From: Dissulfurispiraceae bacterium
GTDB lineage: Bacteria; Nitrospirota; Thermodesulfovibrionia; Thermodesulfovibrionales; Dissulfurispiraceae
Direction of reading: 5' to 3'
Length of the DNA stretch: 63,845 nucleotides
Assembly (NCBI GenBank): GCA_036781645.1
Contig: DAIQAO010000005.1
Coordinates: forward strand, 1-63,845
Positions 25,601 to 37,600 of this stretch are shown here, piece after piece. The position numbers were made by a program. Numbering within the stretch: the first letter of the stretch is position 1; each line of letters opens with the position of its first letter.

Positions 25601-28600
25601 AGTCGAAAAGCATCATCTAATTGTCGAAAACATCTCTCTCAAATCACAACTTAAGGAGCGCTATAGCTTTAAAAATATAATAGGCAAAAGCCATGTTATG
25701 CAGGATATTTTTAATCTGATAGAGACAGTCTCTAAAAGCAACGCCAATGTTTTGATAATAGGCGAGAGCGGAACAGGAAAAGAACTAATCGCACGCGCTA
25801 TATATAATGAATCAACAAGGGCTAATAAACCTTTTATCCCGATAGATTGTGCTGCATTGCCGGAACAACTCCTTGAGAGCGAACTTTTTGGTCACGAAAA
25901 AGGCTCCTTTACCAGTGCATATGAGCGTAAGGTCGGGCAGATTGAGCTTGCCAATGGTGGAACTATCTTTCTCGATGAAATTGGAGAGCTTCCTTTGAAT
26001 ATTCAGAAAAAACTTTTGAGATTTCTTCAAGAAAGGGAAATTTTAAGAATCGGGGGCAAGGATAGAATCAAAGTTGATGTAAGGATAATCGCTGCAACTA
26101 ACAAAGAGCTTGAAAAAGAAGTGGCTAAAGGCAATTTCAGGGAAGACCTTTTTTATAGGCTTAATGTCGTCACAATCAACGTTCCACCTTTAAGGGAGAG
26201 AAAGGAGGATATCCCCCTTTTAGCAAATTTTTTCCTGCGTAAATTTAATGAGTCAAATAAAAAGACCATTTCATCTTTTGACAGCGAGACTATGCGGGTA
26301 TTTATGGAATATGATTGGCATGGCAATATAAGGGAGCTTGCAAACGTTGTCGAGAGGGCTGTTATTTTATGCCCCCTTGATTCTATTACAATTAAATATC
26401 TGCCTAATTCGATACGTCAGATATCTGCTCAAAAAAGCTCTACAGATATTGCATCCAACCTTGTTGAGACTGAAAAGAGACTGCTCTTAAACGCTCTAAC
26501 AAAGACATCTTGGAATCAGACAAAGGCAGCGGAGATTCTTGGGATATCAAGAAAGCAGCTTAGAACAAAGATGAAGCACCACGGCTTGCTGCCTGAGTAA
26601 GCCCTTGCCTATCGTTGTTCATGCAATCTATGCAATGTGATGGGGTCGCATTACATAGTTCCATTTGGGACAATTAGCAAAATAAAATTGTCCATTTTGG
26701 CACAGATGCCCTCCTCGTCCCTTAGAGAAATTGAATAATTTCTTTAATAAACAACATCGGCATAATTATTGCGATCCTGCTGTAGTAACAATCATCACAA
26801 CGAACCCTCAGGGCTAAAAAAACTAACGCTAAACATAAGAAGGAGGCCGTATGAAAATACTCATTTTTCTTGCCATAGCAATTTCCCTGCATACTGGAAT
26901 TGCCATGGCTCAGACTGAACAGCAGGAGCTTGCCGCACAGGTTACCCTCACATTGGATAAGAAAGAATATGCCGGTGGGGAGGTTATCAAAATTAAAGGC
27001 ACAGCACCCCCGGGACGCCCGGTTTATATCGAGATTGCTTCAGAAAAGAAAGTTCAGGTCAGCCGTCTGGACTCGAGGCGCGACCCTGATACAGGTAAGA
27101 TTCCCTATATCTTTTATCTCTCAAAGGATATCCCTCCGCTTTATATGATACTTATGCCTAAGGAACTTGAAGAGGCATATAAGCTGGAAGTTGCCAAGGG
27201 CAAGGACTGGAGTGTAAGCAGGATGCTCACATCAACAGGGGCAGATGTGGCTTATATAACACCTGCCAAGGCAAAGGTTGACCGCTGGCAGGCATCTATC
27301 ATGGCTACTATACTTGGTTCAAGAGGCGATCAATTGGAGCCTATGGATGAAAAAGGTAACAGAAGGCAATCAATGCCATTAATGAAGGCAAGATATAGGT
27401 GGCCTGAAAGAATGTTTGCCCCTACAATAGAAATCAAAGAAGATGGAACTTTCACAGCAGAATATAAACTCCCTGATAATGCCCCCAGCGGTTCTTATAC
27501 AGTGATTGCAGTAGTTGACAGAGAGTTGAAAAGTGCCCCTGCTACATTCAAGCATGACCTTGGGTTTGCACAATTGTATTTCGATAGGGCAGGACAGAGC
27601 TTAAATATAATTGGGCCTTTTCTGTTAGCTGTTGTTGTATGCACTTTTGGTGTCGTAATGGGTGCAGGTGGAGGATTTATTCTCAATCCTCTTTTGATAT
27701 TTATTTATGGGATACCCCATGCGATAGTAGCTGGCTCGGTGCTGCCTTCTGTTCTTTTTAGCCAGGGTACTGGCATATATAACTACTCAAAAATCAAATT
27801 CATTAACTGGAAACTAGGGGTATCCATTGGTATTGCAATGCTTGCAGGAGGCTTCATCGGACCTAAGCTGACAGAAATGATCACCCTTGAACAGTATAAG
27901 TTCCTCTTTGGGTGGGTCTTACTTATTCTTGCAGCTATAATGTTGTGGCAGACTACTCCCGGCTATATAGCCAAGAGCGCGAAGGACCAAGCAATACTTA
28001 AAGAATTTAAGAAGCGGGCTGAAGAAGCTGCGGCTAAGAAAGCTGCAAAATCAGAGGAAGGAGGCAAATTATGAAAATACAATTCTGGGGACAGGAATTT
28101 AAAGCCAATATGATAGTTGGCTGCACAGGCGGCTTTCTGATCGCCATTATGTCAAGTATGTTTGGTTTCGGTGGCGGTCCTTTCATGGTTCCACTTATGA
28201 CCGTCCTAATGGGACTGCCAATGTATGTAGTTGTGGGCAGTTCGCTGCTTGCCATCTTTTTCAATACCCTTATGGCTTCTTCAAGGGTTGTGGGTTTTGG
28301 GAATGTCGATTTTCTTTTGTTTGGCTTTATGGCAGCAGGAGCAGTGCTTGGCGGCTTTTTAGGTCCACAGATTTCCAAGAGGCTGAATCCTCTCTGGGTT
28401 AAGAGGGTGGCAGTAGTTGGTTTAACAATATTAGGGCTTATGCTTTTGGGTGTAATTCCAACCCCCAAATAAATAAAAAAACATCAGGAGGTAGTTAATG
28501 AAAGGAAAGTTTTTGCTCGTTGTTTTGGCAGTGTTGCTTGTATTGCCTTATAGTGCATTTGCAGCAGAGTTGAAGTTCGGACTTTTGCCAAGGCTTACAG

Positions 28601-34600: not shown

Positions 34601-37600
34601 TCATGGGTTCCGGCGGAATGGTCGTGATGGATGAAGATACATGCATGGTGGATGTATCAAAATTCTTTCTTTCCTTTTGCATGGACGAATCCTGCGGTCA
34701 GTGTACTCCTTGCCGAGAAGGGACAAAGGAGATGGTGCGTCTTCTTGATGAGATAACCAAAGGGCACGGCACTACTGAACATATAACACAGCTCGAAGAG
34801 CTTGCTGAGACAATGCAAGCCGTCTCCCTTTGCGGACTCGGTAAGACAGCGCCTAACCCGGTGCTTTCTACACTTAAATACTTCAGAGAAGAATACGATG
34901 CCCATATTCTGGACAAACGTTGTCCTGCTCACGTATGCCGTGCGCTTCTAACTTATAGCATAGACCCTTCAAAATGCATTGGATGCGGAGTGTGCGCCAT
35001 GAACTGTCCGCAACAAGCTGTCTTTGGAGAAAAGAAGAAAACCCACCGAATCGAGCAATACAAATGCATTCGTTGCAATGCCTGCTACGAAGGGTGTAAA
35101 TTTGGTGCGGTTATAAAGGAATAGCTATGCCAAAAATAATATTAAATGAAGTGGAAATACAGGCTCCAGACAATATGACCGTTCTTGATGTTGCAAGACA
35201 ACAGGGTTTAGACATCCCCACTCTTTGCTGGCATGAGGCCCTGGGTCCCTATGGAGCGTGCAGGCTCTGCCTTGCAGAAGTTTCAAGCCCTATCATGAAG
35301 CCAACACTTATGACGACATGCAACTTAAAACCTTCTGACGGCATGAAAGTGCAAACTGATACCCTTGATGTCAAAAGAAAGCGCAAAGTCATATTTGAAC
35401 TTTTACTGGCAAGAAGTCCTGAGGCTAAACCTCTTATCAAACTAGCTGAAAGGTATGGCGTTACAAAGACACGATTTAAAAGCGACACTATCGATGAATG
35501 TGTCCGCTGCGGTATATGCGTCAGGGCTTGTCGTGATAAGATTGGCCAATCAGCTATAGTATTCGCTTATAGGGGCAGAAACCGCCATGTAACTAGCGAG
35601 TTTGAAAAGCCTTCTGAACTTTGCATAGGTTGTGGCACATGTGCAGCCCTCTGCCCCACCGGAGCTATAAAGGTGGAGGACAAGGGAATATATCGGAAGG
35701 TATATCTATGGGACAACATTATAAGTAAGCTGGAGCGAGCTCAATGTCCTGCCTGCGGGAGGTTCTTTTCGACTAAGGCTTTCCTGGGTTATGTTCTCGG
35801 ACGCCTCTCGGAAGAACAGGGTGCAAAATTGAAGGGCATTTGTTCAGAATGCGCCCGCTCTCACTATGCAAAGGCACTTACGGGGGAGTTCCCGCCATAC
35901 TGAAAATCTGTCATAATACCATACCGAGCTTGTCGAAGGATAACATTATAGCTCCAAGTATGCCTGTTTAAAGAATGGCTCTCTATGCAAGCGTTCCGTT
36001 GATTTCACGCCCACGATCAGAGAATGACTCAATTGAGCCTTTAGGAAGCCTTTAAAAATAAAAGCTTCCTAAAAATTATTTAACCACTAAAACGGGACAT
36101 CTTGAGTAGTCAATTACCTTTGAAGAGACACTACCTAAAAGAAATTTCTTTGCCCCATGTCTTCCGTGGGAACCAGTTACAATCAGATCCACCTTCATTT
36201 TTTGGGCTGTTTCGAGAATCTTCTCTGCAGGATCTCCCTGCCTGATGACGGTTTTTACTTCTATTGATTTGCCGGAGAGAGACTTTCTGATTTTTTCCAT
36301 TGCCTGCCGGGTTTCTTCTTCAAGGGTCTTGGCAATTCTGTTTCTGTCTTCTTCAGGAAGTTCCGTTAAGTAAAGCTCTGGGACTACTGATAAAACGGTT
36401 AGAGAAGCATTGGAATTGATTGCCATATCAACTGCCTTTTTCAGAGCCTTATCTGATGATTTTGAGCCATCGTGTGCTACAAGTATTTTTTGCATAATAC
36501 CTCCTGCTCTCATTTTTTTCAACAAAACAGACTTATTTGTAATAATTTTTAAACAGCATCGAGTGAATCCATGAAATCCCTATTTGCAAAATACCATTTG
36601 ACGGTCTTTTCGATTCCCTGCTCAATAGGTGTTGCAGGCGACCAACCAAGCCTCTCTATTGTTGAACTTATATCTGCCCATGTATCCAGAACATCGGCTG
36701 GATGTCTGGGCTCAAAAATAATTTGAGCTTTTTTACCGATCACTTTTTCAATGATCTGAACTACCTGCATAAGTTCTACAGGATTGTCGTTTCCAAGATT
36801 ATATATTTCGTAACCATCTTCTTTATTAAGGCACATTATGGTTCCTTCAGCGATATCGGTGATATATGTGAAATCCCTTTTTTGCCTTCCATCTCCATAA
36901 ATTACTATGGATCTGCCTGAAGCAATATTCCTAATAAACCTGAAGATGCTCATATCAGGCCTGCCTGCAGGACCATAAACAGTGAAGTATCTCGGGATAC
37001 TTATGTCTAAATTATAAAGATGATGATAACTGTAGCTTAAAACCTCTGCAGCCTTTTTAGTGGCGGCGTAAGGTGCAAGGCAGTTGTCCGTCTTATCAGT
37101 CACCTCAAAGGGAATTTTTTTATTGCCCCCATATAAACTTGACGTGGATGCAAGAACTAATTTCTTCACATTAAAATTCTTGCAGCACTCAAGGAGGTTC
37201 AATGTTCCTTTGACATTGGTATCGAGGTATATCCACGGGTTCTCAATGGAAGCCCTGACACCAGCCCTTGCTGCAAGGTTAATAACAGCGTCAAGATGAT
37301 GGTTGGAAAATATCGTCTTGATGCCAAGAAAATCAGATATATCGAGTTTATAAAAAACAAAATCACTATTCGCCTGATTTCTGTATAAAAGAGAGAGGCG
37401 CCATTCCTTAAGCCTGGGGTCATAATAATCGTTCATGTCATCAACCCCGATAACTGAACCTCCCTGATTTAGGAGCATTTCAGATACTTTATAGCCTATA
37501 AAGCCGGCGCATCCTGTTACCAAAACGGTCTTCATCCACTCACTTTATTATGATATCAGAGAATCAGACCAGAATTTTAAAAATCTGTAATATAAACAGT

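What a model noticed while it worked through the whole genome (the two positions that open the first line are those of the whole stretch)
26851..35903. Cytoplasmic PhsAB-type molybdoenzyme with TauE joined to a Bfu electron-bifurcating module
A TAT-less polysulfide/thiosulfate-reductase-like enzyme (g00350-51) with no membrane anchor is co-encoded with a split TauE exporter and a TtrS-like sensor, and here runs on into bfuC-bfuB-bfuA (g00353-55). Across the family the TauE-PhsAB core is constant while the downstream electron partner is swapped between a complex-I-like module, an Nfn/GltD-like module and Bfu.
Evidence so far: g00350 is 33% identical to PsrA and 31% to PhsA, with no signal peptide. 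g00354 has ADEGDPGAFMDR and KPPFPA. Orthologs in 37 of 68 family genomes. In 20 family loci TauE is adjacent in 20; nuo-like genes follow in 11, BfuA-like plus GltD/Nfn-like genes in about 7, and 2 have neither. Thermodesulfovibrio-like loci carry the nuo-like module.
(Added by a program. Inside this text positions count along the whole contig: contig position 1 is position 1 of the stretch shown here. "Call 12" and the like, gene names such as g00115 and contig names such as C1 are that model's own, and its searches are not shown. The text may have been shortened before it was handed on; [...] marks where a part breaks off. The agent that wrote the report below was given it as the finding of a first reader that could run no searches.)

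Follow-up and report, generated by a model that had tools for sequence, protein, structure and literature searches.

The report
Thiosulfate-reductase-like enzyme wired to Bfu module
A sulfate-reducer-type bacterium encodes a leaderless, anchorless relative of thiosulfate reductase directly in front of an electron-bifurcation (NADH plus ferredoxin) module, a pairing that recurs in two phyla and likely shows how these cytoplasmic sulfur enzymes get their electrons, though the substrate and the activity are predicted, not tested.

Summary
The gene order is confirmed: tauE-a, tauE-b, binding protein, TAT-less phsA-like, phsB-like, CBS, bfuC, bfuB, bfuA, behind a sigma-54 two-component system.

The phsAB-CBS-bfuCBA run recurs in two other families of the class. 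phsAB sits with bfuCBA in 12 of 20 Desulfobacterales loci fetched.

BfuA is the constant adaptor. All 27 Phs-adjacent BfuA-like proteins fall in one 28-row clade (99/93), whether the partner is BfuBC or a GltD-like flavoprotein. It has the layout of WorA, which docks a four-cluster FeS subunit.

BfuB meets the published bifurcation signatures; only the B5 site is non-canonical.

Best reading (about 45%): a confurcating thiosulfate reductase driven by NADH plus reduced ferredoxin, feeding sulfite to DsrAB. Substrate, direction and complex formation are inferred.

"TtrS-like" and "exporter" are overstated, and KPPFPA is not diagnostic. The published Bfu catalogue has no such class. Other notes of this scan describe the same system.

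The parts
19722..20696 (+). FmdE-ModE fusion (Mo-related regulator); probably accessory
   Evidence: PF02663 and ModE domain; FmdE and MoeA-like relatives also flank L241
20689..21888 (+). molybdopterin-binding (MoeA-like) protein; probably accessory
   Evidence: PF00994
21888..23600 (+). double-domain PhnD/PtxB-like periplasmic binding protein, likely sensor input
   Evidence: PF12974 twice; Asn where ArrX has Cys; relatives 51-72% identical upstream of family loci
23597..25228 (+). membrane histidine kinase (sCache, HAMP, HisKA)
25239..26600 (+). sigma-54 response regulator (NtrC/AtoC type)
26758..26772 (+). sigma-54 -24/-12 promoter-like site upstream of tauE-a
   Evidence: 1 of 3 strict matches in the window; a relaxed pattern occurs within 1.7 kb upstream of tauE-a in 25 of 50 related loci (about 3 of 50 by my hand estimate of chance)
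26851..28074 (+). TauE first half, with signal-like N-terminus and a ~230 aa beta-rich domain predicted to be periplasmic
   Evidence: PF01925; model pLDDT 78; colinear with the fused Desulfobacterales form
28071..28472 (+). TauE second half
   Evidence: PF01925 positions 126-236; split kept in family loci
28498..29334 (+). single-domain PhnD/PtxB-like binding protein without Cys, likely partner of TauE
   Evidence: lies before or after tauE in relatives
29677..31758 (+). TAT-less Psr/Phs-type Mo-bisPGD catalytic subunit; FS0 C11/14/18/46; predicted metal ligand C137
   Evidence: C137 aligns with PsrA C173 and is a TGA codon in G144
31768..32277 (+). four-cluster FeS subunit (PsrB/WorS family), 16 Cys
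32302..32733 (+). CBS-pair protein, role unknown
   Evidence: same position in L198 and L199, and next to the BfuA-like gene in L002-L005
32745..33197 (+). BfuC (C1 [2Fe-2S]; C76, 81, 117, 121)
33190..35124 (+). BfuB (FMN/NADH site, B1, B2-site, B3, B4; non-canonical B5)
35127..35903 (+). short WorA-type BfuA (A1, A2, A4, no A3, C-terminal four-Cys finger and helix)
   Evidence: 9MQX_A E 8.4e-47; Cys pattern and clade

Best explanation
The genes encode a leaderless PhsAB-type molybdoenzyme and a BfuABC module that likely form one cytoplasmic complex, predicted to reduce thiosulfate to sulfide and sulfite with electrons pooled from NADH and reduced ferredoxin. Predicted path: NADH at FMN and ferredoxin at B3/B4 -> B1 -> BfuA A1-A2-A4 -> the four clusters of PhsB -> FS0 -> Mo-Cys137. 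The substrate would be sensed by the binding protein-kinase-sigma-54 system and would enter through the binding protein and split TauE; sulfite would go on to the genome's DsrAB/DsrD. Shown: genes, motifs, linkage, recurrence, clades. Inferred: physical complex (about 85%), bifurcating chemistry (about 80% given that), thiosulfate and the reductive direction (about 60-65%).
For: Recurrence: tauE-ab, phsA, phsB, CBS, bfuC, bfuB, bfuA in G233 and G122, two other families; 12 of 20 Desulfobacterales loci with phsA, phsB and bfuCBA together, and 2 more with phsB-bfuCBA at a contig end; one NCBI MAG with PhsA and NuoF accessions five apart, both on 23,064-bp contigs. Dedicated adaptor: 27 of 27 Phs-adjacent BfuA-like proteins in one 28-row clade of a 57-row tree, 99/93; Phs-linked BfuBs in one 32-row clade of 63, 99 (FastTree). 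Structural precedent: the best PDB hit of BfuA is WorA, whose finger and C-terminal helix recruit the four-cluster WorS (PMC12318220 passages); PhsB matches WorS 9MQX_E at E 9e-18. BfuB carries A249/M251, F329, GGPSG, B2 ligands C485/H572/C578/C583, and B3/B4 (criteria). Substrate: best models are PhsA and PsrA; host has dsrAB, a DsrD-like ORF, sat, aprA, qmoC, hydrogenases and small ferredoxin-like ORFs; a TAT-less, PhsC-less PhsAB rises under thiosulfate disproportionation in Dissulfuribacter (PMC13490349); in Desulfolithobacter, PhsA-1 (701 aa) and PhsB-1 (168 aa) are numbered directly before nuoABCD, and those Nuo subunits are 2-3-fold higher or found only on thiosulfate (PMC9751629 tables). 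E0' -402 mV is close to the NADH/ferredoxin mean of -390 mV.
Against: No biochemistry for any member. I could not verify by sequence that the Dissulfuribacter or Desulfolithobacter enzymes are orthologues; the link rests on length and gene layout. PhsA-1 itself was only slightly higher on thiosulfate and its authors doubted a major role. Active-site residues differ from PsrA (H145->R110, R332->W295). Bfu pairs with several catalytic subtypes (HDDTC, HHATC, HDALC, HDCTC), so substrates may differ. B5 has only three aligned Cys (C40, C104, C108). With sulfite drawn down, the thiosulfate couple rises to about -170 to -240 mV, so NADH alone could suffice. 0 of 39 family loci have bfuCBA, and the window's nearest PhsA relatives use the nuo module. 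One bfuCBA of this type has no phsAB beside it (L248), and one BfuA of the clade sits before a formate-dehydrogenase-like gene (L113). dsrA is in 63 of 68 family genomes, so co-occurrence with it does not discriminate.
Confidence: 0.45

Rival explanations
1. Same complex, but another substrate: polysulfide, tetrathionate or trithionate, selenate, arsenate/thioarsenate or a sulfoxide.
For: Psr/Phs specificity cannot be read from sequence (PMC13047784 passage). Several active-site subtypes exist, two in tandem in L239. The binding proteins are PhnD/PtxB-like oxyanion binders. An ArsC/LMWP-like gene follows phsAB-bfuA-gltD in several relatives.
Against: ArrA, TtrA, YnfE/F and DmsA models score far below PhsA. 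The binding protein has Asn where ArrX has Cys, and the second one has no Cys. The LMWP-like proteins score below both ArsC cut-offs (one tested) and are absent from the flanks of this locus.
Confidence: 0.2
2. The complex runs oxidatively like Wor-Bfu: it oxidises sulfite to sulfate in the cytoplasm and bifurcates the electrons to NAD+ and ferredoxin, with TauE exporting product.
For: The sulfate/sulfite couple (-516 mV, recalled; -386 to -483 mV) can reduce both carriers. The closest structural precedent is oxidative. The nuo variant would then be forward and proton-pumping. A leaderless Psr-family sulfite dehydrogenase, SoeABC, is known (recalled).
Against: The host has Sat/Apr/Qmo and reductive-type Dsr with a DsrD-like gene. 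None of the 25 NCBIfam families matched was a sulfite dehydrogenase. The proteomic hints follow thiosulfate, not sulfite.
Confidence: 0.12
3. BfuBC works here as a plain NADH dehydrogenase, so the enzyme is an NADH-dependent reductase without bifurcation.
For: The B5 site is degenerate in all Phs-linked BfuBs checked. Fourteen class loci use BfuA with a GltD-like flavoprotein and no BfuBC. L242 uses a NuoF-type partner without the signatures, and the L240 and L007 BfuBs lack B3/B4.
Against: The other published signatures are kept in the window and in 14 of 14 stand-alone Phs-linked BfuBs checked. Caldicellulosiruptor NfnB has Zn, not a cluster, at B5 and bifurcates (PMC11829005 section 9).
Confidence: 0.13
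4. phsAB and bfuCBA are co-transcribed but act as separate enzymes, or are chance neighbours.
For: Absent from all 39 family loci; L248 has bfuCBA alone.
Against: BfuA has no catalytic domain and belongs to a clade that is almost always Phs-adjacent; the linkage is kept in two phyla and through gene-order changes (L241; divergent in L007).
Confidence: 0.08

Closest known systems
WorABCSL (Wor-Bfu, Type 2) of Acetomicrobium mobile, PDB 9MQX, PMC12318220
   Same: Short BfuA without A3, with a four-Cys finger and C-terminal helix; four-cluster FeS link subunit; BfuBC core; a pterin-metal catalytic subunit as the third-substrate site.
   Different: The catalytic subunit here is a DMSO-reductase-family Mo-bisPGD protein, not an AOR-family tungsten protein; the predicted direction is reductive; B5 is non-canonical.
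PsrABC of Thermus thermophilus (2VPW) and PhsABC of Salmonella (NCBIfam NF012032)
   Same: Best sequence matches of A and B; FS0 cysteines; aligned Cys ligand.
   Different: No TAT leader, no C subunit, below the PhsA cut-off, changed active-site residues; electrons predicted from NADH and ferredoxin instead of quinol.
Cytoplasmic PhsAB-like proteins of Dissulfuribacter thermophilus and Desulfolithobacter dissulfuricans (PMC13490349, PMC9751629)
   Same: No C subunit (both), no TAT leader (stated for Dissulfuribacter), similar lengths; one is followed by nuo genes like the family's other variant.
   Different: No Bfu partner mentioned in the passages read; electron donor unknown; orthology not verified by sequence.
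Codh-Bfu and Fdh-Bfu (PMC9304861)
   Same: Catalytic subunit plus FeS subunit plus BfuCBA in one cluster (seen in L135, L153, L175).
   Different: Different catalytic enzyme; their BfuA and BfuB lie outside the Phs-linked clades, except L113.

Membership tests
BfuABC (PMC9304861) | BfuB with FMN-binding, SLBB, NADH-4Fe4S and ferredoxin-like domains; BfuC NuoE-like; BfuA with 2Fe-2S and 4Fe-4S domains | tested here: met
   Pfam equivalents (SLBB weak, 22 bits against 27); definition read
BfuABC (PMC9304861) | B2-site ligands: three Cys and one His conserved in all 1,558 Bfu | tested here: met
   C485, H572, C578, C583 align with 7T2R_B C438, H525, C531, C536
BfuABC (PMC9304861) | B1 and C-terminal B3/B4 [4Fe-4S] motifs; C1 in BfuC | tested here: met
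BfuABC (PMC9304861) | B5 site in the N-terminal domain | tested here: inconclusive
   Only C40, C104 and C108 align; Gly replaces the second Cys; spare C91 and C97 lie nearby. A bifurcating member with Zn at B5 is published.
Bifurcating beta subunits (PMC7311640) | A/E-x-M near NADH site; Phe near FMN; GGPSG; extra FeS centres | tested here: met
   A249/M251, GAGAF (F329, placed by Supplementary Fig. 10 of PMC9304861), GGPSG 444
BfuABC (PMC9304861) | Activity needs NAD(H), ferredoxin and a third substrate together | not testable with these tools
   needs purified enzyme
Type 2 Bfu | BfuA lacks A3 and a catalytic domain; extra subunits feed A4 | tested here: met
   No HxxxCxxC; 16 Cys give A1, A2, A4 and a finger. 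Docking on PhsB is inferred.
PhsABC/PsrABC | NF012032 curated cut-off | tested here: not met
   535 against 694 bits
PhsABC/PsrABC | TAT leader on subunit A | tested here: not met
   only the 2 outgroup rows of 72 carry one
PhsABC/PsrABC | Membrane anchor subunit C in the operon | tested here: not met
   none between 29677 and 35903
PhsABC/PsrABC | FS0 cluster and Cys ligand to Mo | tested here: met
   C11/14/18/46; C137 aligned with PsrA C173 (its role as ligand is recalled); TGA at this column in G144
TtrS sensor | Binding domain fused to kinase; NF040750 cut-off | tested here: not met
   separate genes; 53.6, 43 and 110.8 bits against 750
AioX/ArrX arsenite sensors | Conserved Cys in the binding protein (its role is recalled) | tested here: not met
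   ArrX ICTY aligns with QNPY (C-terminal domain only); the 278-aa protein has no Cys

The most novel reading that the evidence does not exclude
A new, widespread Bfu class, Phs-Bfu: the first electron-confurcating reductase of an inorganic sulfur compound. It belongs to a modular family in which one cytoplasmic PhsAB plugs, through a dedicated BfuA adaptor or a complex-I-like arm, into NADH plus ferredoxin, NAD(P)H, or proton-motive reverse electron flow. That would supply the missing electron route for the first step of thiosulfate respiration and disproportionation in Nitrospirota and Desulfobacterota.
Probability: 0.4. Interest if true: 0.85.

Novelty: new variant of a known kind. Interest (0 to 1): 0.66.

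Why it matters
Papers on sulfur disproportionators say that no PhsAB lacking its C subunit has been functionally analysed and leave its electron donor open. This family is common: 67 of 390 class genomes and 133 of 301 Desulfobacterales genomes sampled carry it. The neighbouring genes name three candidate donors, which makes the question testable. If confirmed, it adds a sulfur oxyanion to the third substrates of Bfu enzymes; the published table lists none.

Tried and rejected
Local rearrangement: rejected.

Frameshifted tauE: rejected; the split is conserved and both halves are colinear with a fused form.

Arsenite sensing: disfavoured.

KPPFPA as a bifurcation marker: rejected.

L112 is 100% identical to the window over 21,896 bp and was dropped as not independent. 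L116 and L243 appear to be the same contig and were counted once.

Three PhsA/BfuB pairs that share source and contig length (P0017/P0125, P0020/P0133, P0086/P0131) had no accessions and are not counted as shown.

My first sigma-54 pattern had the wrong spacing and was redone. The sigma-70 and terminator scan was at chance level.

The TauE N-domain had no structural match at E<=0.001 and only weak MG2/Ig-like leads. The plasmid search gave only PhnD-type hits at about 25% identity.

No RNA holder listed.

Supplementary Table S9 of PMC13490349 was not among the held files; it could bear on orthology.

Literature searches that found nothing. each found one paper, neither listed as describing this pairing.
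Full report
1. Observation. Nine co-oriented genes fill 26851-35903: two TauE halves, a PhnD-like binding protein, a 693-aa molybdopterin enzyme, a 169-aa four-cluster FeS protein, a CBS pair, and NuoE-, NuoF- and short NuoG-like genes. From phsA to bfuA the gaps are 9, 24, 11, -8 and 2 bp; 342 bp separate the binding protein from phsA. PhsA has no RR motif or hydrophobic leader, and only the 2 outgroup rows among 72 aligned proteins carry a TAT motif. Its best solved relative is PsrA (E 1.5e-120); it scores 535 bits on the PhsA model, under the 694 cut-off. 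C137 aligns with PsrA C173 and is a TGA codon in G144, as expected for a Cys/Sec metal ligand. Upstream lie a double-domain binding protein, a kinase and a sigma-54 regulator, and a -24/-12 site at 26758 that recurs upstream of tauE in 25 of 50 related loci. The window's origin was not given; the named close hits are Thermodesulfovibrionales, Dissulfurispiraceae and Nitrospirota.

2. Host. The genome has dsrA and dsrB, a DsrD-like ORF (by position, size and recalled motif; no NCBIfam hit at 1e-25), sat, aprA, qmoC, Fhs, NiFe hydrogenases, an NfnAB-like pair and small ferredoxin-like ORFs. It reads as a sulfate reducer.

3. Partner swapping. PhsA matches at E<=1e-180 occur in 67 of 390 class genomes. 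I fetched 61 loci: 39 from 38 family genomes, and 22 of the 28 matches outside the family. Within 4.5 kb downstream, 23 have nuo-like genes (three only nuoD or nuoDI, one mixed), 14 BfuA plus a GltD-like flavoprotein, 2 BfuA only, 2 bfuCBA, 6 something else (one, L219, has nuo genes further on), and 14 end at the contig end. tauE lies upstream in 51, is cut off in 4 and absent in 6. On the PhsA tree the partner labels need 28 changes against a minimum of 13, and the window's nearest relatives carry nuo. Swaps are therefore recurrent.

4. The Bfu pairing recurs. A strict BfuB search of the class (E<=1e-259, only 3 candidates scored per genome) found 4 other genomes. Two of them, G233 and G122, from different families, have tauE-a, tauE-b, phsA, phsB, CBS, bfuC, bfuB, bfuA in the same order (PhsA 74% and 50%, BfuB 86% and 72%); the other two have no phsA in the region fetched. 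An NCBI MAG has PhsA and NuoF accessions five apart, both on 23,064-bp contigs. In a sample of 301 genomes from the order of L007 (titled Desulfobacterales), 133 hold a PhsA-family match and 40 a BfuA match. I fetched 19 of the 22 best BfuA hits plus G499. Twelve have phsA (partial in L246), phsB and bfuCBA together, most with a divergent fused tauE and a GltD-like gene behind. Two have phsB-bfuCBA at a contig end, 3 are cut before phsB, 1 has bfuCBA alone, 1 has two phsAB pairs with bfuA and gltD only, and 1 has a NuoEFG without the signatures. These loci were chosen by BfuA similarity, so 12 of 20 is not a frequency for the order.

5. BfuA is the adaptor. In a 57-row tree, all 27 Phs-adjacent BfuA-like proteins group with one Fdh-adjacent protein (L113) in a clade at 99/93, apart from the Fdh-, hydrogenase-, Codh-, Nfn- and Nuo-type BfuAs (partner labels for the metagenome loci were assigned loosely from neighbour sizes and BLAST hits). 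A quick rerun gave 93, unstarred. The protein has A1, A2 and A4 motifs, no A3, and a four-Cys finger with a C-terminal helix; its best PDB hit is WorA (E 8e-47). In the WorABCSL structure this helix recruits the four-cluster WorS and brings S4 within 10.7 A of A4 (PMC12318220, passages). PhsB is a WorS relative with a conserved C-terminal extension. The GltD-like partner in the family begins with a NuoF-type 4Fe-4S domain (L048, L073), so it may dock where BfuB does (inference).

6. BfuB. It has A249/M251, GAGAF, GGPSG, the four B2-site ligands, B1, B3 and B4, meeting the criteria of PMC7311640 (passages) and PMC9304861 (text parts 2-3, passages and whole supplement). B5 has three aligned Cys in all Phs-linked copies checked; a bifurcating NfnB with Zn at B5 is published (PMC11829005, section 9 and passages). 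All Phs-linked BfuBs lie in one 32-row clade that also holds many proteins of unknown context.

7. Mechanism. I commit to a confurcating thiosulfate reductase. E0' is -402 mV (PMC13490349) and the NADH/ferredoxin mean is -390 mV. At millimolar levels the couple is near -300 mV, and higher if Dsr removes sulfite (55 C assumed). Reduction is downhill and the reverse is not, but NADH alone might then do. Physiological hints: a TAT-less PhsAB rises under thiosulfate disproportionation in Dissulfuribacter (passages). In Desulfolithobacter, locus tags place phsAB-1 directly before nuoABCD, whose products are enriched on thiosulfate (passages and supplement rows), although PhsA-1 rose only slightly. 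Orthology to these is unverified. Active-site residues differ from PsrA, and Bfu pairs with at least four catalytic subtypes, so other substrates and the oxidative direction stay open.

8. Novelty. The Bfu paper's main text has 0 hits for thiosulfate, polysulfide or molybdo, and its table lists 12 activities, none on sulfur; 17 clades were left unassigned, and this may be among them. Full-text searches for this pairing found nothing. The library lacks most subscription papers. I also saw passages of PMC12998232 and PMC13047784, which state that such molybdoenzymes cannot be told apart by sequence. Four earlier notes of this scan describe the same family; I saw them after my own analysis and they are not independent evidence.

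9. Verdict. The feature is real, conserved in two phyla and not found in print by these searches. It is a new variant of Type 2 Bfu by sequence; it works like Phs/Psr but is not a member of PhsABC. Interest 0.66.

Noticed in passing
window 49663-53971: A second bfuCBA whose A subunit has a GltD/Nfn-like domain (Nfn-Bfu type). Its BfuB has a long branch and has lost more B5 cysteines.
   Followed up: partly
L212 (G144:C103:22670-24721): PhsA relative with TGA exactly at the predicted Mo ligand, a likely selenocysteine variant; no tauE or known partner beside it.
   Followed up: partly
L056, L058, L062: phsAB followed by nuoD or nuoD-nuoI only, without the membrane arm; remnants or a reduced module.
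   Followed up: no
L050, L055, L059, L073, L076, L080, L226, L227; divergent in L198; fused in L001: An LMWP/ArsC-like gene and a ~1060-aa PEP-synthase-like gene follow or flank the phs cluster in many loci.
   Followed up: partly
L001: Contig titled Sulfurirhabdus carries a 68% identical PhsA nested among Nitrospirota rows, with a CooF-like protein and an FAD/NAD oxidoreductase as partners; transfer or mis-binning.
   Followed up: no
L073, L074, L235-L238, L246, L249: Two BfuA-like genes in one cluster; L235 also has two phsB. This may mean two electron inlets.
   Followed up: no
L239: Two phsAB pairs of different active-site subtype in tandem share one bfuA and one GltD-like gene.
   Followed up: partly
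L240:5899-8970 and L007:1-2259: BfuB extended at the C-terminus by what looks like a GltD-like domain, with no B3/B4 motifs at the end (L007 is cut by the contig end).
   Followed up: partly
window 26910-27600 (TauE-a residues 20-250): A conserved beta-rich domain of no Pfam family on TauE, predicted periplasmic; only weak MG2/Ig-like leads.
   Followed up: partly
window 26657-26704: Two similar near-palindromes about 55-100 bp upstream of the sigma-54 site; possible activator-binding sites.
   Followed up: no
window 39055-40653 (-): Pif1-like helicase with a C-terminal WYL-like domain.
   Followed up: no
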